DNA from: a virus
Virus genome (UHGV): UHGV-1600615
Direction: 5' to 3' (one strand)
Length of the DNA: 16,547 bases
Shown here piece by piece: positions 50 to 14,579 of this stretch (its first letter is position 1; each line of letters starts with the position of its first letter). The position numbers were made by a program, and so were the translations under genes. The notes beneath the pieces are model-generated. The model ran no database searches. It saw only the letters and a program-made list of their open reading frames with translations, and was not told where the DNA came from.

Positions 50-50
50 A

Positions 51-1072: not shown

Positions 1073-1077
1073 TACCA

Positions 1078-1097: not shown

Positions 1098-1108
1098 ACG
1101 TCTATATG

Positions 1109-1187
1109 ATTACCTGGAAGGTAATAAAATGTTCTAATCTCTATTGATTTCATGTCTTATGTGGTTTTTAATTACCTAAGGGGTAAA
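1109..1187 (+). promoter_or_regulatory. Pair of similar 17-bp inverted-repeat sites (operator-like) upstream of the gene at 1190
   Basis: ATTACCTGGAAGGTAAT at 1109-1125 is a perfect 6-bp inverted repeat around a 5-bp spacer. ATTACCTAAGGGGTAAA at 1171-1187 is a near copy that overlaps the ribosome-binding site of the next gene. The region is AT-rich and intergenic. Confidence 0.3.
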
Positions 1188-1189
1188 TC

Positions 1190-1537: not shown

Positions 1538-1598
1538 ATCGACGATCTTTTTAGTTATCAATGTAATCAATAAGTTATGTGGATAAGCGAGGGTAAAG

Positions 1599-2174
1599 AT
1601 GGACGGTAATATCAAAGGGTTAGTTTCCGCCGGGCATGAGATGGCTTCGGAACTGAAAGCTGAATGTGGTGCCGTTGATATGCGCAGTGTGGCAAAGCTG
1701 ATCAGCGATTTGGCAACGCAACTGGAAGTGCAACTGGTGCGTGCTAATGCGCTGGCAGCGGAGAATGCGGGGCTGAAGTCTGGCGCTATGGATGAAATCA
1801 AGGTTATCAACCGTGGAGGGCAGGCATATTGCGTAAAAGATGGAGTGCAAGTTAATCCCATGTATGCAAGAGGGTGGAATGACTATCGCGCAAAGTCTCT
1901 GCAATCAGACACCCCAGCCACCGATGCTTTCCTGGCTGAAGTGAAGACTGAAGCACGCAAGGAGGGCGCTTACTTTGTGGCGAACAGGATGCTGGCTGCC
2001 TGGGAAGCTGGTTTTATTGATGATACTGCGAAGAACGCCGCGGATATTGCCCGGATGATTCTTACCTCTACTGAGTTTATGGCTAATGCGCCGGAAGGCG
2101 ATTTTGACCGCTCATTCTCTGATGGCGTTCTCGAAGATATCGCCGCCCAGCTTCGCAAAGGAGGCAACCAGTGA
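1599..2174 (+). CDS. Hypothetical phage protein (nin-like accessory region)
   Basis: 191-aa ORF with ribosome-binding site GAGGG upstream of the ATG at 1599. The N-terminus is predicted helical or coiled-coil. No family recognised. Confidence 0.7.
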   Translation: MDGNIKGLVSAGHEMASELKAECGAVDMRSVAKLISDLATQLEVQLVRANALAAENAGLKSGAMDEIKVINRGGQAYCVKDGVQVNPMYARGWNDYRAKSLQSDTPATDAFLAEVKTEARKEGAYFVANRMLAAWEAGFIDDTAKNAADIARMILTSTEFMANAPEGDFDRSFSDGVLEDIAAQLRKGGNQ

Positions 2175-2692
2175 GCAAGATTGATTATCAAAAGCTTCGT
2201 GAAATCGCTGAAAAAACAAAAATTGCTGGTGAAGCACCTGTAATGCCTTTCGATCAGCGAATTAATGCGCTTAACGATTTTATGAAGCACTTTTCGCCAG
2301 ATATCGCGCTGGCATTGTTGGATGAACGGGAAAGAAACCTGCAATACATCAAAAGCCGCGACCAGGAGAACGAGGATATTGCGCTAACGGTAGGGAAGCT
2401 GCGCGTTGAGCTGGAAGCCGCAGAGAAGCGCATTGCAGAACTGGAAAGCAACGAAGTCCGTGAAGTCGGAAATCAGTTTCTTGTTGTTCGCCATCCTGGG
2501 AAAACTCCTGTCATCAAGCACTGCACTGGTGACCTGGAAGAGTTTCTGCGGAAGTTAATCGAACAAGACCCGTTAGTAACTATCGGCATCATTACGCATC
2601 GCTATTACGGGATTGGCGGTCAATGGGTTCAGGATGCAGTTGAGTATCTGCATATGATGTCTGACGCTGGCATTCGCATCAAAGGAGAGTGA
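2171..2692 (+). CDS. Ead/Ea22-like prophage protein (putative)
   Basis: 173-aa ORF starting at GTG 2171, with a perfect Shine-Dalgarno AAGGAGG 6 nt upstream and a GTGA overlap with the previous stop. The N-terminal QKLREIAEK and the coiled-coil segment ALLDE...LEAAEKRIAELE resemble the Ead/Ea22-like family common in E. coli lambdoid prophages, recalled from memory. Confidence 0.6.
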   Translation: MSKIDYQKLREIAEKTKIAGEAPVMPFDQRINALNDFMKHFSPDIALALLDERERNLQYIKSRDQENEDIALTVGKLRVELEAAEKRIAELESNEVREVGNQFLVVRHPGKTPVIKHCTGDLEEFLRKLIEQDPLVTIGIITHRYYGIGGQWVQDAVEYLHMMSDAGIRIKGE

Positions 2693-2693
2693 T

Positions 2694-2903
2694 ATGGCTA
2701 TCGCTGCAAGTTACACCATGCATCTCTATTGTGACTGCCGCCAGTGTACGGAAGGTGTATATCCAGTGCCAGACTTCGGTGAGTATATCGGTAGGTCATG
2801 GTCTGGTTGTGCAAAAGAGGCCCGTAAAGACGGGTGGCGAATAAGCGCCGACAAAACGCGTGCTTTTGCGCCCGGGCATAAAGTTTTGAGGATTAACAAA
2901 TGA
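2694..2903 (+). CDS. Small hypothetical Cys-containing protein
   Basis: 69-aa ORF with ribosome-binding site GGAG upstream. Start and stop are coupled to the neighbouring genes, including an ATGA overlap with the next gene. Contains CDCRQC ... C. Confidence 0.5.
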   Translation: MAIAASYTMHLYCDCRQCTEGVYPVPDFGEYIGRSWSGCAKEARKDGWRISADKTRAFAPGHKVLRINK

Positions 2904-3436
2904 CCACTATAACCGATAAGAAACAGTATCCCAGCGAGCAATATCTTAATGAGCTGATCACCAACATAGAGTTTGCTGCAAGGGCACCAGTTGAAGTCGT
3001 GAGAGCGATGGCAGCAGAGCTACAGAAGCGGCGCGAAGCTGATAGTGCAGAACCTGCAAGTAATCATGAAGAGTTGCCGCTTGATTATCTCCAAGGTCAA
3101 AAAGATGGTCTTGAATGGGCTGCGCAGCTTGCAGAAGCAAATCACCCACAAACTGGCGACTGGCTTTACGATGACCCGCTGGAGCTGGCTAAAGCTATCA
3201 GAAAAGGTCCTGACATGCCCGAATTCGATGGACCAACTCCGGTAACTCCGGATGGTTGGATAAGCTGTAGTGAGCGAATGCCGGATAATAATCACGACGT
3301 ACTTTTCTTCGATGTGTGGGGTTATATCCGGATGGGCTGGTTCAGTGCGGACGATCGTTCGTGGTTTACGTCGGATGATGGGTGCCGCATGGAGGTAACC
3401 CACTGGATGCCGCTACCAGAACCGCCCCAGGGGTGA
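2900..3436 (+). CDS. DUF551-domain phage protein
   Basis: 178-aa ORF. The C-terminus WISCSERMPD...VLFFDVWGY...VTHWMPLPEPP matches the DUF551 signature (ending W.PLPEPP) as recalled. Confidence 0.65.
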   Translation: MTTITDKKQYPSEQYLNELITNIEFAARAPVEVVRAMAAELQKRREADSAEPASNHEELPLDYLQGQKDGLEWAAQLAEANHPQTGDWLYDDPLELAKAIRKGPDMPEFDGPTPVTPDGWISCSERMPDNNHDVLFFDVWGYIRMGWFSADDRSWFTSDDGCRMEVTHWMPLPEPPQG

Positions 3437-3502
3437 AATGATGCTTGGCCTGAAGTATTTTATGTAATTGGTATTGCTATATTTTTATCTGGGGATAAAC
3501 GA

Positions 3503-3745
3503 ATGTTCTCTCTGATTCAACGTGGTCAGATATACACCGATAGCGCCGGCTATCCAGTAAAAATCATTCGTAGTACTGATCACTCAGTGTTCTTCAAGAG
3601 GATGGATGGCTATCCTGGAAGGGTGTGCATCAGAAAATTCAATAATTTATTCGAACACATTGATCACAGAGAATATCACCAGATCCTGGCTGAAACAGAA
3701 CAGGAGAACCATCTGAAAAAATTACGTGCCATGCAAAGGAGATAA
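3503..3745 (+). CDS. Hypothetical small phage protein
   Basis: 80-aa ORF preceded by an AT-rich intergenic region and ribosome-binding site GGGGAT. No family recognised. Confidence 0.55.
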   Translation: MFSLIQRGQIYTDSAGYPVKIIRSTDHSVFFKRMDGYPGRVCIRKFNNLFEHIDHREYHQILAETEQENHLKKLRAMQRR

Positions 3746-3777
3746 ACCGGTAAAGGTGTTCGCGATAAAGGTAAATA

Positions 3778-4119
3778 TTGATGGCTAAATCAGCAGCAGA
3801 GCGCAAAGCCGCTCAGAGAGCCAGACAAGCTGCATCTGGTGTGCGTAAGCTGGAAATTGTGCTTGATGCTCAGGAAATTGAAATGCTGGAGCGTAACTGT
3901 GCCACGCGTCGCCCCGGGCGTGCGCCTTACGAATTTGGTGAGTATATAGCGTTACTGATCCGCCAGGATGATGCACGCGTGCGCGGGCGTATAAAATCGA
4001 TCAGCAGAAAACGTTGCGGTAAGTGCGGCGGGAGAGTTCCAGTTAATTCATGCCCGTGTAATGGTGACTCGCAATGCTGGGTGACTAAAGGCTGGCATGA
4101 AACGAAATTAATAGTGTGA
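3778..4119 (+). CDS. Putative small DNA-binding regulator: ribbon-helix-helix-like N-terminus plus C-terminal Cys4 zinc-ribbon-like cluster
   Basis: 113-aa ORF; the likely start is the ATG at 3781. The N-terminal segment VRKLEIVLDAQEIEMLERN has a strand-then-helix pattern typical of ribbon-helix-helix proteins. The C-terminus carries RCGKCGG-x9-CPCNG. It is the last gene before the terminator and the packaging genes. Confidence 0.6.
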   Translation: MMAKSAAERKAAQRARQAASGVRKLEIVLDAQEIEMLERNCATRRPGRAPYEFGEYIALLIRQDDARVRGRIKSISRKRCGKCGGRVPVNSCPCNGDSQCWVTKGWHETKLIV

Positions 4120-4168
4120 CATGTCACGAGTAGATTATGCATGATGAATTTGATGGGTTTTGAATACT

Positions 4169-4195
4169 GCCGCCAACTATGGCGGCTTTATTTTG
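4169..4195 (+). terminator. Rho-independent terminator between the regulator gene and the terminase genes
   Basis: Perfect 7-bp stem GCCGCCA (4169-4175) and TGGCGGC (4180-4186) around loop ACTA, followed by TTTATTTT (4187-4194). Confidence 0.75.
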
Positions 4196-4198
4196 CAT

Positions 4199-4230
4199 GG
4201 TACTATTACCACAACGGTAACTATTACCAC
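4199..4230 (+). repeat. Tandem direct repeat GGTA(A)CTATTACCAC in the leader of the small terminase gene
   Basis: GGTACTATTACCAC at 4199-4212 and GGTAACTATTACCAC at 4216-4230. It lies between the terminator and the probable terS start codons at 4238/4241, and it contains the same ATTACC half-site seen at 1109-1187. Confidence 0.5.
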
Positions 4231-4237
4231 GGTGGTT

Positions 4238-4834
4238 ATGATGCCTGCTGAACCTAAAACCTATAAACGCAAATCAACGCAATTTAAGCCACTAACAGCA
4301 ATGCAGGAGGCTTATTGCCAGTCATACATCAAAACGCCTGAAAACCAGACTCAGGCAGCGATTAACGCAGGATTCTCCCCAAATACAGCGGCAGTTAAAG
4401 CCAGTGTCATGATGCGCGATGAACGCATTCAAAAACGGATTGCCGAGCTGATGGAGGAGCGCAACAAACGAATGCGCGTCAGTGCCGATTACGTTCTTAT
4501 GCGCCTGGTGGAGATCGACCAGATGGATGTGATCGACATCCTCAACGACGATGGGAGCCTTAAGCCAATCCGCGAGTGGCCGAAAATCTGGCGCACTACG
4601 CTTAGTGGCTTTGATCTGTCATCGACCATCATGAACATGAACGAGGATTCGATAGAGACAATCCTCAAAAAAATTAAATGGCCTGACAAGGTGAAGAACC
4701 TTGAGCTGATTGGTAAGCATGTTGATGTCAACGCGTTCAAAGAACGTCTGGATGTTAATGTGAATGTGACAATTGCTGATCGCATAGCAGCAGCCAGGAA
4801 GCGACTCAAAGAACGTCAGGATGGTAATCAGTGA
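4238..4834 (+). CDS. terS: Terminase small subunit (Terminase_2-type)
   Basis: LTAMQEAYCQSYIKTPENQTQAAINAGFSPNTAAVKASVMM...RVSADYVLMRLVEID matches the conserved helix-turn-helix core of Terminase_2 small subunits. The track ORF starts at TTG 4160, but that would span the terminator hairpin, so the ATG at 4238/4241 (GGTGG ribosome-binding site upstream) is preferred. The stop overlaps the next start as GTGA. Confidence 0.85.
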   Translation: MMPAEPKTYKRKSTQFKPLTAMQEAYCQSYIKTPENQTQAAINAGFSPNTAAVKASVMMRDERIQKRIAELMEERNKRMRVSADYVLMRLVEIDQMDVIDILNDDGSLKPIREWPKIWRTTLSGFDLSSTIMNMNEDSIETILKKIKWPDKVKNLELIGKHVDVNAFKERLDVNVNVTIADRIAAARKRLKERQDGNQ

Positions 4835-7293
4835 CAGATACAGCGTTATCTCCTGAAGAGCAGTTGATCGAGGATATTGCAGGGTTCACTCACGATCCGC
4901 TTGGCTATGCCCTCTATGCGTTCCCGTGGGGGGAAGAGGGGACTGAACTGGCACATGCCACCGGCCCACGTCAGTGGCAGGCTGATGCGTTCCGAGAGAT
5001 ACGTGATCACCTGCAGAATCCAGAGACGCGCTATCAGCCGCTTATGCTGGCACGCGCTTCTGGTCACGGTATTGGTAAATCCGCATTCATCTCAATGCTG
5101 ATCAACTGGGGCATGTCCACTTGCGAGGATTGTAAGGTCGTGGTGACCGCCAACACCGACAACCAGCTACGAACGAAGACCTGGCCGGAAATTATCAAGT
5201 GGTCGAACCTTGCTATCACGAAAGACTGGTTTGCCTGTACCGCTACCGCGATGTACAGCAATGATCCTGGGCACGACAAGCGGTGGCGAGCTGACGCAAT
5301 CCCCTGGTCTGAGCACAACACTGAGGCATTCGCCGGACTACACAACGAGCGCAAACGCATCATCGTGGTATTCGATGAAGCGTCGAACATTGCGGATCTG
5401 GTGTGGGAAGTTGCTGAGGGTGCGCTTACGGACGAAGACACTGAGATTATCTGGGTGGCGTTCGGAAACCCTACTCGTAACACCGGGCGTTTCCGCGAAT
5501 GTTTCCGCAAATATAAACACCGCTGGAAAACTGCGCAGATTGACAGCCGGACGGTGGAAGGCACTAACAAACAGCAGTTGCAGAAATGGGTTGATGACTA
5601 CGGGGAAGATAGCGACTTCGTTAAAATCCGTGTGCGCGGCATATTCCCTGATGCATCTGAATTGCAGTTTATCCCTACCGGTCTTACTGATGAGGCAATG
5701 AAACGGGTGGTAACCGCTGCGCAGGTGGCGCATGCTCCGGTGATAATCGGTGTTGACCCGGCATATTCAGGCGTTGATGACGCGGTGATATACCTGCGGC
5801 AGGGGCTACACAGTAAGGTGCTGTGGACTGGCAACAAGACTACCGACGATCTGATTATGGCGAAGCGTATCGCTGACTTTGAAGACCAGTATCAGGCTGA
5901 CGCAGTGTTCATCGACTTCGGTTACGGAACCGGTTTGAAGTCAATCGGTGATGGCTGGGGACGTACATGGCAACTTGTTCCGTTCGGCGGTGCGTCCACT
6001 GACCCGCAGATGCTCAACAAGCGTGGGGAGATGTTCAACTCATGCAAGACATGGCTGAGGCTGGGCGGGATGCTGGATGACCAGGAAACAGCGGACGACC
6101 TGTCGGCGGCAGAGTATAAAGTTCGAGTGGACGGTAAAATCGTTATCGAACCGAAGGAAGATATCAAGGAGCGGCTTGGGCGTTCTCCTGGTAAAGGCGA
6201 TGCGCTACTGCTGACGTTTGCTTTCCCTGTGTCAAAGCGTCTGCGAATTCCCGGGTACCCGAACATTGACCGCGATACATCGAAGCTGGATAGCAAGAAC
6301 AAGCCATTCAAATCGGTTTATTACGAGGTTGGTGGCGATAACGACAAGTTGTTGCGTGAGTCCGGATTCGATGAGTTTCCAATTATGGCTCCGCGCTGGG
6401 AAGTTAACGGCGAAGATGTTTATGGATCATCATGCCCGGGTATGCTGGCGCTTGGACCTGTTAAGGCATTGCAGCTTCTCCAGAAGCGCAAGTCGCAGTT
6501 GATTGATAAAGCCACCAATCCGCCGATGGTTGCTCCTACTTCCCTCAAGAATCAGCGCGCCTCCCTTCTTCCTGGCGACATCACGTATATCGATCAGATT
6601 ACTGGTCAGGATGGCTTCAGGCCTGCTTATCTGGTTAACCCCAGTACAGCAGATTTGGTGGCAGATATTCAGGACACTCGTCAAATCATTAACAGCGCCT
6701 ACTTTGTCGATCTGTTCATGATGTTGCAGAACATCAATACCCGCTCGATGCCTGTTGAAGCGGTGATCGAAATGAAAGAAGAAAAACTTCTGATGTTGGG
6801 GCCGGTTCTGGAGCGTCTGAACGACGAATGTCTTAATCCTCTCATTGACCGTGCTTTCTCGATGATGGTGCGTAAAAACATGCTGCCTCCACCGCCAGAT
6901 GTGATGGAAGGTATGCCACTGAAGGTCGAATACATTTCCGTCATGGCTCAGGCACGGAAGTCTATCGGCCTGTCCAGTCTGGCGTCTACGGTCAACTTCA
7001 TTGGTCAACTTGCGCAAGCGAAACCAGAAGCTCTCGACAAACTCAACGTTGATCAGGCGATCGATGCATTCGCTGATATGTCCGGAGTGTCTCCAACCGT
7101 CATTGTTCCGCAGGAACAGGTTGAGCATGCTCGCCAGCAACGGGCACAGCAACAACAGCAGCAACAAATGATGGCGATGGGGATGGCGGCGGCACAGGGT
7201 GCCAAGACGCTAAGCGAAGCTAAAACTTCGGATCCGAGTGTTTTGTCTGCTATGGCGAATGCAGTTAGTGGTCAGGGTGGGCAATCACAATGA
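4831..7293 (+). CDS. Anomalous 820-aa fusion ORF: terminase large subunit (residues ~1-472) fused in frame to the C-terminal ~340 aa of a T7-like portal (head-tail connector)
   Basis: The N-terminal part has a Walker A-like P-loop ARASGHGIGKS (~5053-5085), Walker B IIVVFDEASN (~5359-5390), a WVAFGNPT motif, and a nuclease-domain signature VIIGVDPAYSGVDDAVIYL ... SPGKGDALLLTFAF. From residue ~478 the sequence follows the C-terminal two thirds of a podovirus portal, including a Q/M/A/G-rich tail QQRAQQQQQQQMMAMGMAAAQG that resembles the T7 gp8 C-terminus as recalled. The portal N-terminal ~200 residues are absent. The junction codons RIPGYP are encoded by GAATTCCCGGGTACC (6245-6259). Confidence 0.8.
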   Translation: MTDTALSPEEQLIEDIAGFTHDPLGYALYAFPWGEEGTELAHATGPRQWQADAFREIRDHLQNPETRYQPLMLARASGHGIGKSAFISMLINWGMSTCEDCKVVVTANTDNQLRTKTWPEIIKWSNLAITKDWFACTATAMYSNDPGHDKRWRADAIPWSEHNTEAFAGLHNERKRIIVVFDEASNIADLVWEVAEGALTDEDTEIIWVAFGNPTRNTGRFRECFRKYKHRWKTAQIDSRTVEGTNKQQLQKWVDDYGEDSDFVKIRVRGIFPDASELQFIPTGLTDEAMKRVVTAAQVAHAPVIIGVDPAYSGVDDAVIYLRQGLHSKVLWTGNKTTDDLIMAKRIADFEDQYQADAVFIDFGYGTGLKSIGDGWGRTWQLVPFGGASTDPQMLNKRGEMFNSCKTWLRLGGMLDDQETADDLSAAEYKVRVDGKIVIEPKEDIKERLGRSPGKGDALLLTFAFPVSKRLRIPGYPNIDRDTSKLDSKNKPFKSVYYEVGGDNDKLLRESGFDEFPIMAPRWEVNGEDVYGSSCPGMLALGPVKALQLLQKRKSQLIDKATNPPMVAPTSLKNQRASLLPGDITYIDQITGQDGFRPAYLVNPSTADLVADIQDTRQIINSAYFVDLFMMLQNINTRSMPVEAVIEMKEEKLLMLGPVLERLNDECLNPLIDRAFSMMVRKNMLPPPPDVMEGMPLKVEYISVMAQARKSIGLSSLASTVNFIGQLAQAKPEALDKLNVDQAIDAFADMSGVSPTVIVPQEQVEHARQQRAQQQQQQQMMAMGMAAAQGAKTLSEAKTSDPSVLSAMANAVSGQGGQSQ

Positions 7294-7586
7294 CAGATTA
7301 CGAAGACGATCAACTGAAAGAAGAAAACGCCAGTAAGCAACGTGACATGGCACAGCGTGAAATTGATGACATTCGCTTTGTCATGAGCAGTGAACAGGGG
7401 CGTCGCGTTGTCTGGTCTGTGCTGGAGAAAGGCCGGGTGTTTTCCGCTATCTCACCGATGGACGCTATGGCAATGGCATTTAATGAGGGGCAACGCAATC
7501 TGGCGCTGGAACTGTTTCAGCGCGTTATGGCGCATTGCCCTGAACAGTATTTGAAGATGGCCAAAGAGGCCAGTGAACAGGAGTGA
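7290..7586 (+). CDS. Small conserved head-module protein (possibly Bbp19-like)
   Basis: 98-aa ORF whose ATGA start overlaps the previous stop. It sits between portal and scaffold, as the small gene does in BPP-1-like modules; the family assignment is from memory only. Confidence 0.55.
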   Translation: MTDYEDDQLKEENASKQRDMAQREIDDIRFVMSSEQGRRVVWSVLEKGRVFSAISPMDAMAMAFNEGQRNLALELFQRVMAHCPEQYLKMAKEASEQE

Positions 7587-8284
7587 TCATGAATTTATTT
7601 GAGCGTTTGCTGTATCGCCGTCTTTGCAATGAGCAACCAGTCGATGGTGGAGCAGCTCCGGCTGCGTCAGAACCGTCAGCGCCTGCAGGTGATACCCCTG
7701 CTCCAGTTGGTGATCCATCACAACAGGAAGGTGATAAGCCACAACCTGTTGCTGATGGCGATAAACCTGCTGATGACAAAAAGCCTGAAAACGATAAGCA
7801 GGATGAAAAAAAGGGCGGCGATAAACCAGAGGGTGCGCCTGAGAAGTACGAGTTTCAGGCTGCCGAAGGCGTAGATCTGGATACAGAAGCGTTGAAGGAA
7901 TTCGAGCCGGTGGCGCGAGAACTTAACCTGACCAACGAGCAAGCGCAAAAGCTGGTTGATGCTTATCCGAAGATTCTGGCAGGTGTTCAGCAGCGCCAGG
8001 CAGAAGCCTGGCAGAAAACAACCGAGCAGTGGGCTGCGGATGTAAAAGCTGACAAAGAAATCGGTGGCGACAAGTTGATTTCTAACCTTAGCGTCGCACA
8101 GCGTGCGCTTGACCAGTTCGGGACACCTGAACTCAAAGAATATCTGAACACCACCGGGCTGGGTAATCACCCTGATCTGGTCAAAACGTTCGTGAAAATC
8201 GGAAAGGCGATGTCTGAAGATGGCATGGTCACCGGTGGTAATGAAGGCCAGCGTAGTGCGGCCGAAGTGCTCTATGGCAAATAA
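7583..8284 (+). CDS. Putative scaffolding protein
   Basis: 233-aa ORF immediately upstream of the capsid gene, with its start coupled to the previous stop. It has a long acidic, Pro/Ala/Lys-rich low-complexity N-terminal region followed by a helical C-terminal part ending SAAEVLYGK. Confidence 0.55.
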   Translation: MIMNLFERLLYRRLCNEQPVDGGAAPAASEPSAPAGDTPAPVGDPSQQEGDKPQPVADGDKPADDKKPENDKQDEKKGGDKPEGAPEKYEFQAAEGVDLDTEALKEFEPVARELNLTNEQAQKLVDAYPKILAGVQQRQAEAWQKTTEQWAADVKADKEIGGDKLISNLSVAQRALDQFGTPELKEYLNTTGLGNHPDLVKTFVKIGKAMSEDGMVTGGNEGQRSAAEVLYGK

Positions 8285-8292
8285 GAGAGGAA

Positions 8293-9285
8293 ATGACAAT
8301 GGCTGTTAAAGGCTTAACTGCGCTAACGCTGGCTGACTGGGGTAAGCGCGTCGATCCAAACGGGAAAGTCGATAAGATTATCGAGCTTCTCGGTCAAACT
8401 AACCCGATCCTTCAGGATATGCCTTTTGTCGAAGGGAACCTTCCTACCGGACACCGAACCACCATTCGTTCTGGTTTACCTTCAGCTACCTGGCGTTTGC
8501 TGAACTATGGCGTACAGCCAAGCAAATCAACCACAGTGCAGGTAACCGATTCCGTTGGCATGCTGGAAACCTATGCTGAAGTCGATAAGTCACTGGCTGA
8601 TCTGAACGGCAACACCGCCGAATTCCGCCTGTCTGAAGACCGCGCATTTATTGAAGCGATGAATCAGCAGATGGCGCAGACGCTGTTTTATGGTGATTCC
8701 AGCGTTAACCCTCAGCAGTTTATGGGACTGTCCTCCCGCTATTCCAGCCTGTCTGCGGGTAATGCTCAGAACATCATTGATGCTGGTGGCACGGGTACAG
8801 ATAACACCTCAATCTGGTTAGTGGTGTGGGGCGAAAACACCGTGCATGGCATCTTCCCGAAAGGGCAGAAGGCTGGCATCCAGATGGAAGATAAAGGCCA
8901 GGTGACACTGGAAGATGCTAATGGCGGCAAGTACGAAGGCTATCGCACCCATTACAAATGGGATAACGGACTTGCTCTGCGTGACTGGCGTTATGTTGTT
9001 CGCATTGCAAACATCGATGTCAGCAATCTTTCAGAACCTTCCTCTGCCGCAAATATTGCGAAGTTGATGGTTAAAGCACTGCATCGAATTCCAAACCGTG
9101 GCATGGGTCGCCCGGTGTTCTACATGAACCGCACTGTAGGCCAGGCTCTTGATCTGCAATCTCTGGAGAAAACATCTCTGGCGATCAGCGTAAAAGAGAC
9201 AGAAGGCGAGTGGTGGACGTCATTCCGTGGTGTACCAATCCGTGAAACTGATGCGCTTCTGGAAACAGAAGCCCGCGTGGTGTAA
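8293..9285 (+). CDS. Major capsid protein (putative)
   Basis: 330-aa ORF with ribosome-binding site GAGAGGAAA upstream. Size and position (after the scaffold, before decoration and tail genes) fit a major capsid protein. It is followed by a stem-loop and an internal terminator. Confidence 0.7.
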   Translation: MTMAVKGLTALTLADWGKRVDPNGKVDKIIELLGQTNPILQDMPFVEGNLPTGHRTTIRSGLPSATWRLLNYGVQPSKSTTVQVTDSVGMLETYAEVDKSLADLNGNTAEFRLSEDRAFIEAMNQQMAQTLFYGDSSVNPQQFMGLSSRYSSLSAGNAQNIIDAGGTGTDNTSIWLVVWGENTVHGIFPKGQKAGIQMEDKGQVTLEDANGGKYEGYRTHYKWDNGLALRDWRYVVRIANIDVSNLSEPSSAANIAKLMVKALHRIPNRGMGRPVFYMNRTVGQALDLQSLEKTSLAISVKETEGEWWTSFRGVPIRETDALLETEARVV

Positions 9286-9301
9286 CGCCTGTTATTAACC
9301 T

Positions 9302-9321
9302 GTGGGTCGTAACAGACCCAC
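9302..9321 (+). other. Stem-loop immediately downstream of the capsid gene, with no T-tract
   Basis: Perfect 7-bp stem GTGGGTC (9302-9308) and GACCCAC (9315-9321) around loop GTAACA. It lies between the capsid stop (9285) and the ribosome-binding site of the next gene. Confidence 0.45.
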
Positions 9322-9336
9322 TAATGGAGAAAGAAG

Positions 9337-9774
9337 ATGATCACCGACAAACTGTTGATGTTCTCCGAAGCTCAGGCGGTTACGAATACCGCGGCTTCTA
9401 CTGACGTAATCGATCTCGGTCCAATTGACGGAAAACGTCGTGATATCGGCGTGGGTTACCCGCTTGAGTTTTGGGCGCTGGTTAACACAGCCGCCGCAGC
9501 AAGCGGTGATGCAACTGTAAACATCCAGTTGCAGACGAGTGAGGATAACAGCTCATGGACCACTATTTATGATAGTGGTGCACTGGCAAAGACCGCCCTG
9601 ACAGCAGGTAAACGAGTTGTTTCTGCAAAGGTGCCTGCCGGTGTTCAGCGATATCTGCGTGTTAACTACTCCGTCGCAACTGGCCCGCTAACGGCTGGCG
9701 AATTCACTGCTGGTATCAGTCTTGATGTTGATGCCAATACGCCGTATCCGATCCGCTCAAAAGTAACTGGTTAA
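9337..9774 (+). CDS. Putative capsid decoration/cement protein (possibly Bbp16-like)
   Basis: 145-aa ORF directly after the major capsid gene with ribosome-binding site GGAGAAAG. Predicted beta-rich and Ala/Thr/Gly-rich. The assignment is by synteny and family memory only. Confidence 0.4.
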   Translation: MITDKLLMFSEAQAVTNTAASTDVIDLGPIDGKRRDIGVGYPLEFWALVNTAAAASGDATVNIQLQTSEDNSSWTTIYDSGALAKTALTAGKRVVSAKVPAGVQRYLRVNYSVATGPLTAGEFTAGISLDVDANTPYPIRSKVTG

Positions 9775-9775
9775 G

Positions 9776-10120
9776 GTGATATCGATGTCAGGTGAGAAAC
9801 CAAGATACCGCGTTCTGCGCCTCTCTCATATCCATAACACACTGTGGCCGGAGGGGGCAGAAATCGAATACGAAGGTGAGCCTGGTAGCGCACTGGAACC
9901 TGTTAACGATGCAGCCAGACAGGCAAAAGCAAAAGTTGCAGGAAAGGTGTCAATGGCAGCAACCAGCACCAAAATCATCAACGATGTGTCAGATGATGGT
10001 GAACTGGATAAGCTCCGTGAAGAGTACGAATTGCTCTTTAACGAGAAGCCACACCATAACGCCAAAGCTGAAACGCTCCGCGAGAAGATCGCAGATAAGC
10101 GTAAAGAACTGGGCGTGTAA
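9776..10120 (+). CDS. Hypothetical virion-module protein
   Basis: 114-aa ORF. The likely true start is the ATG at 9785, with AAGGTG 6 nt upstream. The C-terminal half is charged and helical. It is followed by a strong terminator hairpin. Confidence 0.6.
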   Translation: MISMSGEKPRYRVLRLSHIHNTLWPEGAEIEYEGEPGSALEPVNDAARQAKAKVAGKVSMAATSTKIINDVSDDGELDKLREEYELLFNEKPHHNAKAETLREKIADKRKELGV

Positions 10121-10136
10121 GCCTCGCGGATCAGAC

Positions 10137-10158
10137 AAGGGGCTTCGGCCCCTTTATT
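10137..10158 (+). terminator. Intrinsic terminator or attenuator between head and tail gene blocks
   Basis: 7-bp stem AAGGGGC (10137-10143) and GCCCCTT (10148-10154) closing a TTCG tetraloop, followed by TTTATT. Confidence 0.7.
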
Positions 10159-10164
10159 GCAGGA

Positions 10165-10494
10165 GTGTATATGGAACTCGTAAACCTCAAAACCGGCACT
10201 GACAGCTACCAGGATGAGAGCGGAGAAACCAGAACTCGCGATGAATACCCGTGGGGGCTGTGCATCACTCTTAATAACGACACATTGAATAAGCTGAAGG
10301 CGCAACCTCAGGGCGTCGGAACAGAAGTGATGATAACTGCAAAGGCTGTTATTCGAGGCCTGTCTGCCAGAGAAACTGACGATGGTGTTAATCGCAGCGC
10401 CGATCTGCAGATCACTGATATGGCGATCGCTCCTGTTTCCGGGGATGTAGAAAAATCAGCGGCTGAAACCCTGTACGGCAATGGGGGTGAGTAA
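10165..10494 (+). CDS. Hypothetical virion protein whose C-terminus matches the scaffold C-terminus
   Basis: 109-aa track ORF. The likely start is the ATG at 10171, with AGGAG 5 nt upstream. Its C-terminus KSAAETLYGNGGE resembles the scaffold C-terminus RSAAEVLYGK. Confidence 0.6.
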   Translation: MYMELVNLKTGTDSYQDESGETRTRDEYPWGLCITLNNDTLNKLKAQPQGVGTEVMITAKAVIRGLSARETDDGVNRSADLQITDMAIAPVSGDVEKSAAETLYGNGGE

Positions 10495-11099
10495 TGGCCT
10501 CTGTAGTAGAGATCTGCAATCGTGCGCTGTCCAATATTGGCAACAGCCGCAGCATTAACAGCCTGACGGAAGCCAGCAAGGAAGCGGGGGAATGTTCGCT
10601 GCACTTTGAGGCCTGCCGTGATGCTGTGCTTTCTGATTTTGACTGGAACTTTGCTACCAAACGCGTGGCGCTTGCAAATACGAGCAATCCACCGCCTGAC
10701 TGGGAATATGCGTATCAGTACCCGTCCGATTGTCTGCGCATTACTGAAATTATGCTTCCTGGTGTACGCAATCCAACAGCAGCAATGCGCGTTCAGTACG
10801 AAGTTGGTGCAGACACCAACGGAACAGGAAAGTTGATCTACACAGACCAGCCGCAGGCATGGCTCAAGTATGTCTCTCGCGTTTCAGATGTGAACATGTT
10901 TGATGCCATTTTTATGGAGGCGTTGGCCTGGCGTCTTGCGGCAGCTATTAACATGGCGCTGACTGGGAATGCAGACCTCGGTACGTTTTCCCTCAATATG
11001 TACAATCGCGTGATTCTTAGTGCTGGCTCGCATAGCCAGAATGAATCACAGGAACCACAGCCACCGGTTGACGAGTTTACCATTGCGAGGTTGTCCTGA
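10494..11099 (+). CDS. Tail tubular protein A (T7 gp11-like adaptor/gatekeeper), putative
   Basis: 201-aa ORF with a TAATG start/stop overlap. The N-terminus ASVVEICNRALSNIGNSRSINSLTE...DFDWNF parallels T7 gp11 ([24 protein letters not shown]...RGWTFN) as recalled, and the size matches gp11 (196 aa). Confidence 0.6.
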   Translation: MASVVEICNRALSNIGNSRSINSLTEASKEAGECSLHFEACRDAVLSDFDWNFATKRVALANTSNPPPDWEYAYQYPSDCLRITEIMLPGVRNPTAAMRVQYEVGADTNGTGKLIYTDQPQAWLKYVSRVSDVNMFDAIFMEALAWRLAAAINMALTGNADLGTFSLNMYNRVILSAGSHSQNESQEPQPPVDEFTIARLS

Positions 11100-13570
11100 T
11101 GGCTATCAGTTGGATCCAGCCCAGTTTTGCCGGTGGTGAGATTGGACCGTCGTTGTACGGTCGTATCGACATGGCGAAGTACCAGGTGGCATTGCGCAAG
11201 TGCGATAACTTTATCGTGCGGCAGTATGGCGGCGTTGAGAATCGACCTGGTACGCGTTTTGTCGGTGCCGCCAAATACCCAAATCGGAAATGCCGCCTGA
11301 TCCCGTTCCAGTTCTCGACGGTTCAGACTTATGCTCTGGAGTTCGGACACCAGTACATGCGCGTTATCAAAGATGGTGCGTTGGTGCTGAACAGCAGCAA
11401 TGTTATTTATGAAATTGCCACGCCATATACTGAAGCCGATCTGTTCCGAATTAAATTCACGCAAAGCGCAGACGTGCTTACGCTGGTTCATCCGGCATAC
11501 CCGCCGAAAGAGTTGCGCCGCTATGCGCATGACAACTGGCAACTGGTTGATGTGGTAACGAAGAACGGGCCATTTGAAGATATCAATATTGACGAGTCAG
11601 TGACGGTTTATGCCAGCGCCAGCACCGGGACAATTACGTTAACGGCAAGCGCCTCTATTTTTGGCGCGGAGCAGGTAGGCAAATTGTTCTATCTGGAACA
11701 GCCTGCAGTGGATTCTGTGCCGGTATGGGAAACCAGTAAGAGTACGTCGATTGGCGATATTCGCCGTGCAGACAGTAACTACTATCGCGCCGTTACAGCA
11801 GGCAAAACAGGCACTTTGCGCCCTTCGCATACAGAAGGCACATCATGGGATGGCTGGGGCGGATCCGGTGATGATGATACCGGCATTGAGTGGGAGTATC
11901 TGCACAGTGGTTTTGGCATTGCCCGTATCTCTGCTGCAAATGGAACTACTGCAACTGCCGAGGTGATTTCCTATATCCCTTCGCAGGTAGTTGGCGAGGA
12001 TAATGCCAGCTATAAATGGGCTAAATATGCCTGGAACAGTATTAACGGTTATCCTGGCACTGTTGTTTATTATCAACAACGTCTTTACTTCGCCGCATCG
12101 ACTGCGTTCCCTCAGACTATCTGGGCCAGCCGTACTGGGGATTATAAGGATTTTGGCAAAAGCAATCCTACGCAGGATGACGACAGAATTATCTACACCT
12201 ATGCCGGGCGTCAGGTTAATGAGATCCGCCACCTGATTGATGTTGGTTCGCTGGTGGCGCTGACTTCTGGAGGTGAGTACGTCATCACCGGCGACCAGAA
12301 CAAAGTATTAACCCCATCATCATTTGCATTCAGCTCTCAGGGATCAAATGGCTCGAGCAATGTCCCACCAATTGCCGTGGCGAATATTGCTCTGTTCGTC
12401 CAGGAGAAAGGCAGTGTTGTCCGTGATCTGGCCTACTCATTCGATGTTGACGGCTATCAGGGGAACGACCTGACCATCCTTGCCAATCATCTTTTTCAGA
12501 AGCACAGCATTGTTGACTGGTGCTTCTCTATTGTCCCTTACTCCAGCGCCTTCTGCATTCGTGATGACGGTAAATTACTGGTGATGACCTATTTGCGTGA
12601 TCAGCAGGTTTTTGCATGGGCACCACAATCCAGTACCGGAAAATATGAAAGCACATGCAGTATCAGCGAAGGCAATGAAGATGCGGTGTATTTCGTCGTT
12701 AACCGAACCGTTAACGGGCAAACAGTGAGATACATCGAGCGGCTGTCCAGCCGTTTATTTACCAGCGATGAAGATGCTTTCTTTGTTGATTCTGGCCTTA
12801 GCTATGATGGAAGAAATACGTCTGACAGAACGATGACCATCACTGGTGGTTCTGGCGAATGGGATTATCGCGCGGAATATACAATCAGTGTTTCTGGTGG
12901 TGCGTACTTCACCAGTAGTGATGTCGGCGCGCAACTACAGTTCCCTTATGCCGGAACTGATCCTGATACTGGCGATGAAGTGTCAAAAGAATTACGTTGC
13001 GACATTATTTCTGTAACCAGCAATACCGCTGTAGTGGTTCGTGCCAACAGGAACGTCCCGCCATCCCTCAGGAATGCGGCCACCACGAACTGGCAGATGG
13101 CGCGCCGGACATTTGGAGGCCTGTCTCATCTTGAAGGCCAGACCGTAAACATTCTCTCTGATGCGAACGTGGAACCACAGAAAGTGGTTTCCGGAGGTGC
13201 CGTCACACTGGAATCTCCGGGGGCTGTAGTGCACATCGGCCTGCCAATAACTGCTGAATTCGAAACACTGGATATCAACATTAACGGACAGGAAACGCTG
13301 CTGGACAAAAAACAGGTGATACCCTCCGTTACTCTGGTTGTGAATGCCAGTCGCGGCATCTGGGCGACTACGCCCGGCGGTAAATGGTACGAATATCCAC
13401 AGCGTGAATTCGAGTTCTACGATGATCCTGTTGATGATGCTACCGGAAAAGTAGAAGTGAAACTGGACAGTAACTGGGGCAAAAACGGACGTGTAAAAAT
13501 CCGTCAGCTTGACCCGTTGCCGCTGTCTGTTCTTGCCGTTATTCCTCGCCTTACTGTTGGGGGATTCTGA
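11099..13570 (+). CDS. Tail tubular protein B (T7 gp12-like nozzle), putative
   Basis: 823-aa ORF with a TGATG overlap. The size is close to T7 gp12 (794 aa), the N-terminus MAISWIQPSFAGGEIGPSLYGRID parallels the gp12 N-terminus as recalled, and it directly follows the gp11-like gene. Confidence 0.6.
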   Translation: MAISWIQPSFAGGEIGPSLYGRIDMAKYQVALRKCDNFIVRQYGGVENRPGTRFVGAAKYPNRKCRLIPFQFSTVQTYALEFGHQYMRVIKDGALVLNSSNVIYEIATPYTEADLFRIKFTQSADVLTLVHPAYPPKELRRYAHDNWQLVDVVTKNGPFEDINIDESVTVYASASTGTITLTASASIFGAEQVGKLFYLEQPAVDSVPVWETSKSTSIGDIRRADSNYYRAVTAGKTGTLRPSHTEGTSWDGWGGSGDDDTGIEWEYLHSGFGIARISAANGTTATAEVISYIPSQVVGEDNASYKWAKYAWNSINGYPGTVVYYQQRLYFAASTAFPQTIWASRTGDYKDFGKSNPTQDDDRIIYTYAGRQVNEIRHLIDVGSLVALTSGGEYVITGDQNKVLTPSSFAFSSQGSNGSSNVPPIAVANIALFVQEKGSVVRDLAYSFDVDGYQGNDLTILANHLFQKHSIVDWCFSIVPYSSAFCIRDDGKLLVMTYLRDQQVFAWAPQSSTGKYESTCSISEGNEDAVYFVVNRTVNGQTVRYIERLSSRLFTSDEDAFFVDSGLSYDGRNTSDRTMTITGGSGEWDYRAEYTISVSGGAYFTSSDVGAQLQFPYAGTDPDTGDEVSKELRCDIISVTSNTAVVVRANRNVPPSLRNAATTNWQMARRTFGGLSHLEGQTVNILSDANVEPQKVVSGGAVTLESPGAVVHIGLPITAEFETLDININGQETLLDKKQVIPSVTLVVNASRGIWATTPGGKWYEYPQREFEFYDDPVDDATGKVEVKLDSNWGKNGRVKIRQLDPLPLSVLAVIPRLTVGGF

Positions 13571-14034
13571 TGATCGATGTTCGAATTATTCCCGCTACCG
13601 AAGAGCATCTTCAGATGATTTTGCCGGATGTTCGTCAGGCTGATATTGACGAACTGTATGCGGTATCGCTGATGACTACCGAAGATGCGCTGCGTGTTGG
13701 TCTGCGCACTGCGACTATGGCCTGGTCAGGATTTGCGAACGGAGAACTGGTAACCATGTTTGGCGTATCTCCGGCGTCAATGATCGGTGGCAATGGTACG
13801 CCCTGGCTGGTCGGAACCAGCCGTATCGAAAAATATCAGAAGACATTTCTTCGCCACTGCCGCCCTGTATTGCAGCAGATGCTGGCAGTTTATCCGCGCC
13901 TGGAAAACTATGTCGACGAGCGAAACCATGTTGCCAAAGCATGGCTGCACTGGCTTGGATTCAGGCTTGAAGAAGCCGCGCCTTATGGTGCTCTTGGTCT
14001 TAATTTCCACAGATTTCACATGGAGAGAAAATAA
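13570..14034 (+). CDS. Putative internal virion protein (gp13-like by position)
   Basis: 154-aa ORF, translationally coupled by a TGATG overlap. The assignment rests on synteny with T7-like modules only. Confidence 0.45.
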   Translation: MIDVRIIPATEEHLQMILPDVRQADIDELYAVSLMTTEDALRVGLRTATMAWSGFANGELVTMFGVSPASMIGGNGTPWLVGTSRIEKYQKTFLRHCRPVLQQMLAVYPRLENYVDERNHVAKAWLHWLGFRLEEAAPYGALGLNFHRFHMERK

Positions 14035-14579
14035 TGTGCGATCCGGTTATTGCTGGTGGCGCAATGCTCGCCATGAGTGGCATTCAGGCATACACCCAGT
14101 ACCAACAGGGAAAGTATGCCTCGAAGGTTGCAGAAGCGAACGCAGATATAGCCACAGCTCAGGCAAATGATGCAATAAACAGAGGTAACGCTGAAGCTGA
14201 GCAACGGCGCAGAGAGACCCGACAGCGGCTTGGTACACAGGCGGCGACAATGGGGGCTACCGGCGCTGATTTATCTACAGGTAACGCGCTGGATATATTT
14301 GGCGACACTGCCCAGTTTGGCGCTCTTGATTCTCTGACGACGGTGAATAACGCGCAACGCGAGGCTTACGGTTATCAGGTTCAGGCTGCCAACTATAAAG
14401 CAGAAGCCAGTTCAGCCCGTAAACAGGGGAATGTGGGAGCAGCAACAACATTGCTCACTGCGCCTCTGAAGGCATACGGTGCGTACCAGATGTTTGGTGG
14501 GACGTGGAGTCCGTTTACTCAAAGCACCCCTGCGCCAATCTGGGCAGCAGCAGGAACCAGATTACCCGGAGGATTATAA
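14034..14579 (+). CDS. Putative internal virion protein B (T7 gp14-like)
   Basis: 181-aa ORF with a TAATG overlap. It begins MC followed by a hydrophobic segment (MCDPVIAGGAMLAMSGIQA), as T7 gp14 does, and is Ala/Gln-rich with a Gly/Pro-rich C-terminus. The size matches gp14 (196 aa). Confidence 0.5.
   Translation: MCDPVIAGGAMLAMSGIQAYTQYQQGKYASKVAEANADIATAQANDAINRGNAEAEQRRRETRQRLGTQAATMGATGADLSTGNALDIFGDTAQFGALDSLTTVNNAQREAYGYQVQAANYKAEASSARKQGNVGAATTLLTAPLKAYGAYQMFGGTWSPFTQSTPAPIWAAAGTRLPGGL

What the first reader, a model, noticed from the sequence alone, without database searches (positions are those of the whole stretch)
4831..7293. In-frame terminase-portal fusion with an EcoRI/SmaI/KpnI site cluster exactly at the junction
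A single 820-aa ORF contains an apparently complete large-terminase ATPase and nuclease core, followed directly by a region that aligns by eye to the C-terminal two thirds of a T7-like portal. About 200 N-terminal portal residues and the extreme terminase C-terminus are missing. The junction codons RIPGYP are encoded by GAATTCCCGGGTACC (6245-6259), three overlapping 6-bp restriction palindromes in 15 bp, which resembles a polylinker or linker scar. This could be an engineered deletion or fusion, or a natural deletion that left a defective prophage; the window also starts with an untrimmed adapter, so it comes from raw short-read data. A portal lacking its N-terminal domain should not assemble, so the element would be packaging-defective unless complemented. 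A genuinely natural terminase-portal fusion would be very unusual.
Basis: partly seen in the sequence, partly recalled or inferred. Interest (0 to 1): 0.85.

Follow-up and report, generated by a model that had tools for sequence, protein, structure and literature searches.

The report
Natural deletion in E. coli prophage
A resident virus (prophage) of gut E. coli has lost about 2 kb between its DNA-packaging motor gene and its portal gene, which joins the two genes in frame; the "polylinker" at the joint is native phage sequence, so this is an ordinary crippled prophage and not an engineered construct.

Summary
ORF 4831-7293 (820 aa) is TerL residues 1-475 of 491 joined in frame to portal residues 215-559 of 559, and GAATTCCCGGGTACC lies at 6245-6259.

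The "linker scar" reading does not hold. GAATTCCCGGG is native terL sequence, found in phiV10 and in at least 80 wild viral contigs. TACC is native portal sequence, found in 64 of 64 relatives. The joint (6255|6256) has no foreign base and no microhomology. The KpnI site arises from GG (left arm) plus TACC (right arm).

The window is a phiV10/epsilon15-like (Uetakevirus) prophage of E. coli, integrated beside guaA. The closest intact relative has one mismatch in the 6,206 bp left of the breakpoint and carries 2,063 bp more. That stretch holds the terL 3' end, a Gp49-like ORF, tRNA-Arg(UCU), a 68-aa ORF and the first 214 portal codons.

The same junction and 820-aa ORF occur on a 100-kb scaffold from a different BioSample (2 SNPs in 12 kb) and on about 8 contig records overall. 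None of 5,426 complete E. coli genomes has it.

Verdict: a real, heritable, natural deletion that should block packaging. It is not engineered, not an assembly artefact, and shows no sign of being a selected fusion. Low interest.

The parts
4160..4834 (+). Small terminase subunit gene (TerS), intact. Its end overlaps the start of the fusion ORF, as in relatives.
   Evidence: ORF list. PHROG 51 'terminase small subunit', E=3e-58. Same 224-aa gene in relatives.
4831..7293 (+). 820-aa chimeric ORF: TerL(1-475) joined to portal(215-559).
4831..6255 (+). terL-derived arm, codons 1-475 of 491. Walker A at 5056-5082, Walker B at 5359-5385, nuclease-region motifs IIGVDPA at 5743-5763 and GKGDALLL at 6190-6213.
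   Evidence: One mismatch in 6,206 bp (window 50-6255) against intact prophages L091 and L087. 471/475 aa identical to phiV10 TerL. PHROG 2 match. Motif positions; their functional assignment is inferred from general terminase knowledge.
6245..6255 (+). GAATTCCCGGG: overlapping EcoRI and SmaI sites that are native terL sequence (codons R-I-P-G).
   Evidence: Identical in phiV10 at 2126-2136 and in L091. The native continuation GCGAATTCCCGGGCAGCAGAA was found in 80 IMG/VR contigs, which is the return limit. 80 of the 82 left contexts tabulated in the held loci carry GAATTCCCGGG.
6255..6256 (.). Deletion junction. It is blunt, with 0 bp of microhomology and no inserted bases, and falls at a codon boundary in both genes. 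The KpnI site at 6254-6259 is formed by GG (terL) plus TACC (portal).
   Evidence: Left homology ends at 6255 and right homology starts at 6256 in every relative. The longest exact word shared by the two wild-type breakpoint regions (±60 nt) is 6 nt, typical of random pairs of 120-mers.
6256..7293 (+). Portal-derived arm, codons 215-559 plus the stop codon. The first 214 codons are absent.
   Evidence: Pfam PF12236 profile positions 210-488 of 489 only. PHROG 332 positions 223-560 of 560. PDB 8ck0 residues 217-549. The wild-type context GTGATGCATTCGGTT|TACCCGAACATTGA is invariant in 64/64 relatives.
7290..14579 (+). Downstream head and tail genes, all full length: Bbp19-like 7290-7586, protease 7583-8284, major capsid 8293-9285, Bbp16 cement 9337-9774, tail and connector proteins 10494-11099 and 11099-13570, T7 gp14-like internal virion protein 14034-14579. 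The junction is the only lesion seen in the window.
   Evidence: Ungapped alignment of window 6256-16476 to an intact prophage at 98.5% identity. PHROG matches cover almost the whole length of each query, less so for the major capsid protein (residues 7-248 of 330). Gene calls.

Best explanation
The window is part of a phiV10/epsilon15-like (Uetakevirus-type) temperate podovirus. It sits as a prophage beside guaA in an E. coli lineage found in metagenome samples. One homology-independent (illegitimate) deletion of about 2,063 bp removed five things: the last 16 codons and stop of terL, the variable 'moron' spacer (a Gp49/Sf6-gp66-like ORF and tRNA-Arg(UCU) on the minus strand), a conserved 68-aa ORF, and the first 214 codons of the portal gene. 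Both breakpoints fell on codon boundaries, so an 820-aa TerL-portal chimera is the by-product.

The EcoRI/SmaI pair is native terL sequence. The KpnI site is a chance product of the joint.

Inferred consequence: no intact portal gene and no 68-aa ORF remain in the head module. The portal fragment lacks the N-terminal 43% of the Head-tail_con fold. TerL has lost its C-terminal tail. The prophage therefore should not build portal-containing proheads or package DNA. It is a recently 'grounded' defective prophage, inherited vertically with its host.

Shown here: the anatomy, the native origin of every base, the presence of the allele in independent samples, and the intactness of the neighbouring genes. 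Inferred: the deletion mechanism and the loss of function.
For: 1. Family. The region is 97-98% identical to phiV10, phiv142-3 and hundreds of E. coli prophages, all with separate terL (491 aa) and portal (559 aa) genes.

2. Junction. Left homology ends at 6255 and right homology begins at 6256. The sequence GAATTCCCGGG|TACC is fully native.

3. Near-isogenic intact allele. L091 is 100.000% identical to the deleted allele L092 over the 14,657 bp left of the breakpoint, including guaA and the integrase gene. It carries 2,063 extra bp with TerL 491 aa, Gp49-like ORF, tRNA-Arg(tct), 68-aa ORF and portal 559 aa.

4. Independent occurrence. The same junction and the same 820-aa ORF are on ENA scaffold LEEM22-1_SAMEA8899562 (100,029 bp). 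It differs from the window by 2 SNPs in 12,125 bp, one synonymous and one Q709R. The window's own protein is on WENC17-2_SAMN06111986 scaffold_937, 100% identical over 14,478 bp. The two protein variants sit on 6 and 2 contig records from Logan and ENA.

5. Host. The guaA flank is 100% identical to E. coli chromosomes.

6. No assembler shortcut. The breakpoint regions share at most a 6-nt word, so a k-mer assembler could not jump between them without reads that span the joint.

7. Single lesion. The other structural genes are intact and colinear.

8. Precedent in the family. Other large rearrangements occur in relatives, for example a lambda-P/TerL chimera P0113, and L088 and L094.
Against: - Raw reads could not be mapped, so coverage across the joint and any co-existing intact allele in the same samples are unknown.
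- A junction with no microhomology is less typical of E. coli illegitimate recombination than a short-homology junction (background knowledge).
- A breakpoint falling exactly at the end of a native EcoRI/SmaI pair and creating a third site is a roughly 1-in-1000 coincidence, though it was selected post hoc.
- The two arms have different closest intact relatives: left arm L091, right arm L086. The exact intact parent has therefore not been sampled. One search shows L091 and L086 are nearly identical (1 mismatch) from about 490 bp left of the breakpoint to about 1.1 kb into the deleted interval, so a mosaic parent made by ordinary homologous exchange is enough to explain this.
- Only part of the prophage is visible in the window. 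Relocation of the missing 2 kb elsewhere in the element is not excluded.
- Loss of function is inferred, not tested.
Confidence: 0.9

Rival explanations
1. The deletion was engineered. A laboratory made an in-frame terL-portal deletion, for example a packaging-defective helper or lysogen, using restriction sites or a linker, and the construct or its DNA ended up in the sequenced samples.
For: Three 6-bp sites lie within 15 bp at the joint. The junction is scarless, in frame and on codon boundaries. Such a cluster is rare for random junctions, 0.09%. CCCGGGTACC also occurs in pUC-type polylinkers (my own knowledge).
Against: - Every base is native. GAATTCCCGGG is in wild terL and TACC is in wild portal.
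- Cutting at SmaI/XmaI (CCC^GGG or C^CCGGG) cannot leave an intact CCCGGG joined to the native TACC, and the wild-type portal has no KpnI site.
- The phage is not phiV10 itself (about 97% identity). It is a wild mosaic prophage in an E. coli chromosome next to guaA.
- The allele appears in two BioSamples from differently labelled studies, with 2 SNPs between the copies.
- No plasmid or phage record carries the junction.
- Fusing TerL codon 475 to portal codon 215 is not a sensible design.
Confidence: 0.02
2. The junction is an artefact: an assembly chimera, or a library-preparation chimera in untrimmed raw data, and no such molecule exists.
For: The window begins with 49 nt of untrimmed Illumina adapter. 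The sequences are metagenome assemblies. Reads could not be inspected.
Against: - The identical junction appears in assemblies of two different BioSamples, in the window itself, and on about 8 contig records from two assembly sources, Logan and ENA.
- The wild-type breakpoint regions share no word longer than 6 nt, so a de Bruijn graph cannot bridge them without spanning reads.
- One copy lies inside a 100-kb scaffold.
Confidence: 0.02
3. The fusion is functional and retained by selection. For example, a TerL-portal chimera expressed from the prophage could act as a dominant-negative decoy that poisons portal-ring assembly or terminase docking of superinfecting Uetakevirus relatives, or it could serve a satellite-like parasitic lifestyle.
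For: The reading frame is open over 820 aa in all copies. The allele persists in more than one sample. The rest of the module is intact.
Against: - The copies differ by only 2 SNPs in 12 kb, so the allele is very young and an open frame carries no information. A random deletion between two co-oriented genes is in frame one time in three.
- The single coding change since the deletion, Q709R, is nonsynonymous and lies in the fusion.
- No diverged fusion was found. None of the best 120 cluster representatives in a search of 5.8 billion proteins covers more than 60% of the query.
- The junction was not found in IMG/VR, GTDB species genomes or JGI metagenomes, nor in 5,426 complete E. coli genomes.
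Confidence: 0.04

Closest known systems
Escherichia phage phiV10 and Salmonella phage epsilon15 (genus Uetakevirus) and their E. coli prophage relatives, e.g. phiv142-3 and the intact prophage on scaffold ZHAN20-1_SAMN15422486 (L091)
   Same: Same gene order: TerS, TerL, variable spacer, 68-aa ORF, portal, Bbp19-like, protease, major capsid, Bbp16 cement, and so on. 97-98% nucleotide identity to phiV10, and one mismatch in 6,206 bp to L091 left of the breakpoint. Integrase next to guaA.
   Different: The window lacks 2,063 bp (2,083 bp in phiV10 coordinates 2137-4219). As a result terL and the portal gene are truncated and fused, and the spacer genes, the tRNA-Arg and the 68-aa ORF are gone.
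Defective ('grounded' or cryptic) prophages produced by deletion, such as the cryptic prophages of E. coli K-12 (background knowledge; general literature on prophage decay)
   Same: A temperate phage genome in a bacterial chromosome has lost essential morphogenesis functions through deletion and is inherited with the host.
   Different: Only one lesion is visible and the element is otherwise nearly identical to intact relatives. This is a very early stage of decay, not an old remnant.
pUC-type cloning polylinkers or linker scars (EcoRI, SmaI and KpnI sites)
   Same: Three common 6-bp cloning sites lie within 15 bp. The decamer CCCGGGTACC also occurs in pUC18/19 polylinkers (from memory).
   Different: No base is foreign. 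11 of the 15 bases are native terL sequence and 4 are native portal sequence. The site order and spacing do not match a pUC polylinker, which has SacI between EcoRI and KpnI (from memory). No vector sequence is nearby and there is no match in 72,556 plasmid records.
Intein-containing TerL of the same family (813-814 aa, LAGLIDADG domain PF14528)
   Same: These are also unusually long (about 815 aa) ORFs that begin like this TerL, so they could be confused with the 820-aa ORF on length alone.
   Different: Their extra ~320 residues are an insertion inside the Walker A motif (GHGIGK|S), and both TerL ends are intact. In the window the extra residues are a portal fragment appended after TerL residue 475.

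Membership tests
Uetakevirus-type (phiV10/epsilon15-like) prophage of E. coli | High nucleotide identity and colinear gene order with phiV10, epsilon15 and their prophage relatives | tested here: met
   96.9-98.1% identity to phiV10-group phages and 84% to epsilon15 over terL. Ungapped 98.3-98.5% identity over the head and tail genes. Same gene order.
Uetakevirus-type (phiV10/epsilon15-like) prophage of E. coli | Integrated in a bacterial chromosome, with an integrase at the end of the element | tested here: met
   Scaffold L092, which carries the same allele, has guaA, then a tyrosine integrase (PF00589), then the early genes. The guaA flank is 100% identical to E. coli chromosomes. The window itself contains no host DNA.
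Phage large terminase subunit (TerL) | Similarity to terminase families over both the ATPase and nuclease domains, with Walker A and Walker B motifs | tested here: met
   PHROG 2 'terminase large subunit', E=7e-52 over residues 21-470. Walker A at 76-84 and Walker B at 177-185. Sources name the 491-aa relatives 'terminase'. Pfam and PDB sequence searches gave no significant terminase hit for either this protein or wild-type phiV10 TerL.
Phage large terminase subunit (TerL) | Full-length protein with its own C-terminus and stop codon | tested here: not met
   The last 16 of 491 residues and the stop codon are absent, replaced by 345 portal residues.
T7-type portal / Head-tail_con (PF12236) | Match over the whole profile, as in the family's 559-aa proteins | tested here: not met
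   Only profile positions 210-488 of 489 are present. The phiV10 portal covers 2-488. PHROG 332 positions 223-560 of 560.
Engineered junction / cloning scar | Bases at the joint that belong to neither native flank (linker, polylinker or recombination-site scar) | tested here: not met
   The joint lies at 6255|6256 and every base is native to one of the two flanks.
Engineered junction / cloning scar | Breakpoints consistent with cutting at restriction sites present in the parent | tested here: not met
   The parent has SmaI at the left breakpoint, but the complete site is retained. The parent has no KpnI site and no site at the right breakpoint.
Engineered junction / cloning scar | Occurrence in vector, plasmid or laboratory-phage records | tested here: not met
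   No record covers at least 80% of a 100-nt junction probe in 72,556 plasmids or 50,697 phage records. A dedicated vector database was not available.
Naturally selected gene fusion | The fusion is conserved across diverged lineages | tested here: not met
   It is found only in near-identical copies, 2 SNPs in 12 kb. No other hit among the best 120 cluster representatives covers both halves. Caveat: this fusion is itself hidden inside a terminase cluster at 90% identity, so other fusions could be hidden in the same way.
Defective prophage | Loss of the ability to produce infectious particles | not testable with these tools
   Inferred from the absence of an intact portal gene, the 68-aa ORF and the TerL C-terminus. 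Confirming it needs an induction experiment.

The most novel reading that the evidence does not exclude
The in-frame TerL(1-475)-portal(215-559) chimera is not just debris. It is expressed from the grounded prophage and acts as a dominant-negative decoy that blocks head assembly or packaging of superinfecting phiV10/epsilon15-like phages, which would give the host lineage a selective reason to keep it.
Probability: 0.04. Interest if true: 0.55.

Novelty: already known. Interest (0 to 1): 0.08.

Why it matters
It matters little biologically. This is one more example of an early step in prophage decay: a single 2-kb deletion that should ground an otherwise intact Uetakevirus-type prophage in a gut E. 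coli lineage.

Its practical value is as a caution in two respects.
- Clusters of restriction sites at a junction can be entirely native and need not indicate engineering.
- Clustering at 90% identity hid this chimera inside an ordinary terminase cluster.

The near-isogenic pair of intact L091 and deleted L092 could serve as a clean natural example of homology-independent deletion. It could also serve as a strain marker for tracking this E. coli lineage across metagenomes.

Tried and rejected
1. Polylinker or linker scar. Rejected after aligning both arms to phiV10 and to intact prophages, because no foreign bases are present.

2. Restriction-site-mediated deletion (SmaI/XmaI/KpnI). Rejected because the SmaI site is retained whole and the parent has no KpnI site.

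3. Microhomology or repeat-mediated deletion. No direct or inverted homology beyond 6 nt exists at the breakpoints, which is the same as for random pairs of 120-mers.

4. Exact-junction scans. The junction was not found in IMG/VR, in GTDB species-representative genomes or in JGI metagenomes. It is not contiguous in any of the 543 complete E. coli genomes (of 5,426 searched) that carry the region.

5. Sample provenance. The terms SAMN06111986 and WENC17 are absent from the paper library. I guessed that WENC17 might be Wen et al. 2017 (Genome Biol 18:142), a gut metagenome study. The paper lists only SRP100575, so the link is unverified.

6. Literature. No paper was found for PDB 8ck0, and a phiV10 terminase/portal search returned nothing relevant.

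7. Pfam and PDB sequence searches for the TerL half. No significant terminase hits, and the same is true for wild-type phiV10 TerL. I relied on PHROG 2 instead.

CP090402 is not in the annotated collections.

9. Not run. Structure prediction and fold search were not run, because sequence-level evidence was decisive for what the two halves are.
Full report

Yes. The + strand carries an 820-codon ORF at 4831-7293 with a GTG start that overlaps the end of the upstream small-terminase gene. GAATTCCCGGGTACC occurs once in the window, at 6245-6259. EcoRI starts at 6245, SmaI at 6250, and the only KpnI site of the window at 6254. Window bases 1-49 are an exact match to bases 10-58 of the Illumina TruSeq universal adapter (adapter sequence from my own knowledge). 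Phage homology begins at base 50.

**2. What the two halves are**

Megablast places the region in the phiV10/epsilon15 group (genus Uetakevirus). It is 96.9-98.1% identical to phiV10, vB_EcoP_PAS61, phiv142-3 and others, and 84% identical to epsilon15. It also matches prophages in 543 of 5,426 complete E. coli genomes.

In every one of these relatives terL and the portal gene are separate genes. TerL is 491 aa and the portal is 559 aa. Between them lie a variable spacer and a conserved 68-aa ORF.

| Fusion residues | Origin | Identity to phiV10 | Family matches |
|---|---|---|---|
| 1-475 | TerL 1-475 of 491 | 471/475 | PHROG 2 'terminase large subunit', E=7e-52, residues 21-470 |
| 476-820 | Portal 215-559 of 559 | 340/345 | Pfam PF12236 profile positions 210-488 of 489, E=1e-100; PHROG 332 positions 223-560 of 560; solved portal 8ck0 residues 217-549 |

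The TerL half carries Walker A at 76-84 and Walker B at 177-185. For comparison, the full phiV10 portal covers PF12236 profile positions 2-488. The missing pieces are the last 16 TerL residues (QQNQQGKAITDYDPYA) and the first 214 portal residues.

**3. The junction is not a linker**

BLAST against intact relatives ends the left alignment at window 6255 and starts the right one at 6256. The three sequences side by side:

- Wild-type terL: ...CTGCGAATTCCCGGG|CAGCAGAACC...
- Wild-type portal: ...GATGCATTCGGTT|TACCCGAACATT...
- Window: ...CTGCGAATTCCCGGG|TACCCGAACATT...

The overlapping EcoRI/SmaI pair is therefore native terL sequence. It is present in phiV10 at 2126-2136. Its native continuation was found in 80 IMG/VR contigs, which is the return limit. 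80 of the 82 left contexts tabulated in the held loci carry it. The TACC is native portal sequence, and the right-hand context is invariant in 64 of 64 relatives.

No base is foreign. The KpnI site is made from GG of the left arm and TACC of the right arm. The wild-type sequences contain no KpnI site, and the SmaI site is retained whole, so cutting and rejoining at these sites cannot produce the joint.

A random deletion junction in this DNA creates some 6-bp palindrome 7.4% of the time. A three-site cluster is rarer at 0.09%, but that rarity is post hoc. Another native cluster of three or more palindromic hexamers lies at 7055-7072.

No plasmid record (72,556) or phage record (50,697) covers at least 80% of a 100-nt probe across the joint.

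**4. What is missing**

The interval between the two breakpoints is 1,733-2,455 bp in 62 relatives and 2,083 bp in phiV10.

The best intact relative came from a look-up of a neighbouring window protein. L091 (ENA scaffold ZHAN20-1_SAMN15422486, 101 kb) and L087 (CP090402.1) each have one mismatch in the 6,206 bp left of the breakpoint. In L091 the deleted interval is 14658-16720, which is 2,063 bp. It contains:

- the terL 3' end;
- a Gp49/Sf6-gp66-like ORF on the minus strand;
- tRNA-Arg(tct) on the minus strand;
- the 68-aa ORF;
- portal codons 1-214.

The window has no tRNA.

**5. Is the allele real, and is it natural?**

The window's exact 820-aa protein is on ENA scaffold WENC17-2_SAMN06111986_METAG-scaffold_937. 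That scaffold is 100% identical to the window over 14,478 bp but has different ends, so it is a separate assembly.

A different BioSample carries the same junction and an 820-aa ORF: scaffold LEEM22-1_SAMEA8899562_METAG-scaffold_75 (100,029 bp, L092). It differs from the window by 2 substitutions in 12,125 bp. One is synonymous, at window 1988. The other, at window 6956, gives Q709R within the portal part of the fusion.

The Q709 variant is recorded on 6 contigs (Logan and ENA) and the R709 variant on 2.

L092 shows the element integrated beside guaA, with a tyrosine integrase at its end. The guaA flank is 100% identical to E. coli chromosomes.

The wild-type breakpoint regions share no word longer than 6 nt, so an assembler could not create this joint without reads that span it.

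Taken together, these results rule out an assembly artefact for practical purposes. They also make laboratory engineering very unlikely. This is a wild mosaic prophage in a chromosomal context, seen in independent samples, with a gene fusion that no one would design.

**6. Origin of the allele**

L092 is 100.000% identical to intact L091 over all 14,657 bp left of the joint. It is 100.000% identical to intact L086 over the 4,059 bp right of it. L091's right arm matches L092 at only 98.7%, and L086's left arm at only 96%.

L091 and L086 are nearly identical to each other (1 mismatch) from about 490 bp left of the breakpoint to about 1.1 kb into the deleted interval. An intact mosaic parent formed by ordinary homologous exchange in that stretch, followed by a single deletion, therefore explains the pattern. 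That parent was not found among the sequences examined.

The joint has zero microhomology, which points to homology-independent illegitimate joining. This is inference. I could not tie it to any specific enzyme.

**7. Consequences (inferred)**

Downstream head and tail genes are colinear with intact relatives, ungapped and full length. Upstream genes are essentially identical to the intact allele. The junction is therefore the only visible lesion.

Three functions are affected:

- There is no intact portal gene. The remaining fragment lacks the first 43% of the Head-tail_con profile. From general knowledge of T7-type portals, that region contributes much of the wing domain that builds the dodecamer.
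- The 68-aa ORF conserved from epsilon15 to phiV10 is gone.
- TerL lacks its C-terminal tail. In several phages (lambda gpA, T3 gp19; background knowledge) this tail is the portal-docking element.

The prophage should still be able to excise, replicate and lyse its host. It should not be able to package DNA. It is a recently grounded, defective prophage. A deletion between two co-oriented genes is in frame one time in three, and the copies are too similar for the open frame to indicate selection.

**8. Comparison with what is known, and novelty**

Both genes, the phage family and the phenomenon of prophage inactivation by deletion are well known. The specific allele is absent from all the collections searched:

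- 5,426 complete E. coli genomes;
- IMG/VR;
- GTDB species-representative genomes;
- JGI metagenomes.

No other protein among the best 120 cluster representatives covers both halves. One caveat applies. This chimera is itself hidden inside a 2,726-member terminase cluster, so cluster-level searches are blind to such fusions.

The most novel reading still open is a dominant-negative decoy that excludes related phages. I give it about 4%.

**9. Verdict**

The engineered or polylinker interpretation is not supported. The natural-deletion and defective-prophage alternative is supported with about 0.9 confidence. Interest is low.

Noticed in passing
window 1-49: 49 nt of untrimmed Illumina TruSeq universal adapter (bases 10-58 of the adapter) form the left end of the contig. 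Phage sequence starts at base 50. This has no bearing on the junction at 6255|6256.
   Followed up: yes
P0018-P0038, P0067 (homologues of window 4831-6255): Many TerL homologues of this family (97% identical) are 812-814 aa (one is 687 aa) because a ~320-aa LAGLIDADG intein (PF14528) is inserted inside the Walker A motif, between GHGIGK and S84. The window's TerL has no intein.
   Followed up: partly
P0113 (619 aa, one Logan contig of 21,955 bp): This is another chimeric ORF in the same prophage family. About 233 N-terminal residues carrying a lambda replication-protein-P domain (PF06992) are joined to TerL residues 106-491. It implies a different large deletion or rearrangement, and suggests such deletion fusions recur in these prophages.
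   Followed up: partly
L094 (JGI 3300076470 contig Ga0564270_00015), 10192-13620 and 13274-16702: A 3.4-kb segment (Ead/Ea22 to TerS to the 5' part of terL) is directly repeated at 100% identity, which truncates terL at 141 aa. Lysis genes lie directly upstream of the integrase, as in a circularised genome. This may be a duplication variant or an assembly wrap-around.
   Followed up: no
L088 (E. coli EC24, CP182191.1), 13745-18062: In this complete genome the prophage has terL and the Gp49-like ORF, but then a ~2.1-kb stretch with no called genes, followed by 600-aa and 824-aa proteins in place of the portal-protease-capsid block. This is another altered or decayed structural module.
   Followed up: no
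Between terL and the portal gene in relatives (L091 14709-16078; phiV10 2188-3577): The terL-portal spacer is a variable 'moron' region. The interval between the two breakpoints ranges from 1,733 to 2,455 bp in 62 relatives. Its content varies: a Gp49/Sf6-gp66-like ORF, tRNA-Arg(tct), and small ORFs. It also appears to be a boundary for mosaic exchange, because the left and right arms of the deletion allele have different closest relatives.
   Followed up: partly
window 1757-3780: The early-gene region (Ead/Ea22, DUF551 and DUF4222 genes) is mosaic relative to most complete-genome prophages, with broken and partial alignments. It is colinear with the guaA-adjacent prophages L087, L091 and L092.
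   Followed up: partly
window 14579-16547 (continues in L003 12510-15200): A long ORF runs off the right end of the window (896 aa in L003). It has precomputed hits to NQRA-type domains (PF24836, PF11973) and lies after the T7 gp14-like internal virion protein, so it is presumably an ejection or internal virion protein.
   Followed up: no
window 7055-7072: A second, wholly native place where three or more 6-bp palindromes fall within 15 bp. It shows that such clusters occur in this phage without any junction.
   Followed up: no
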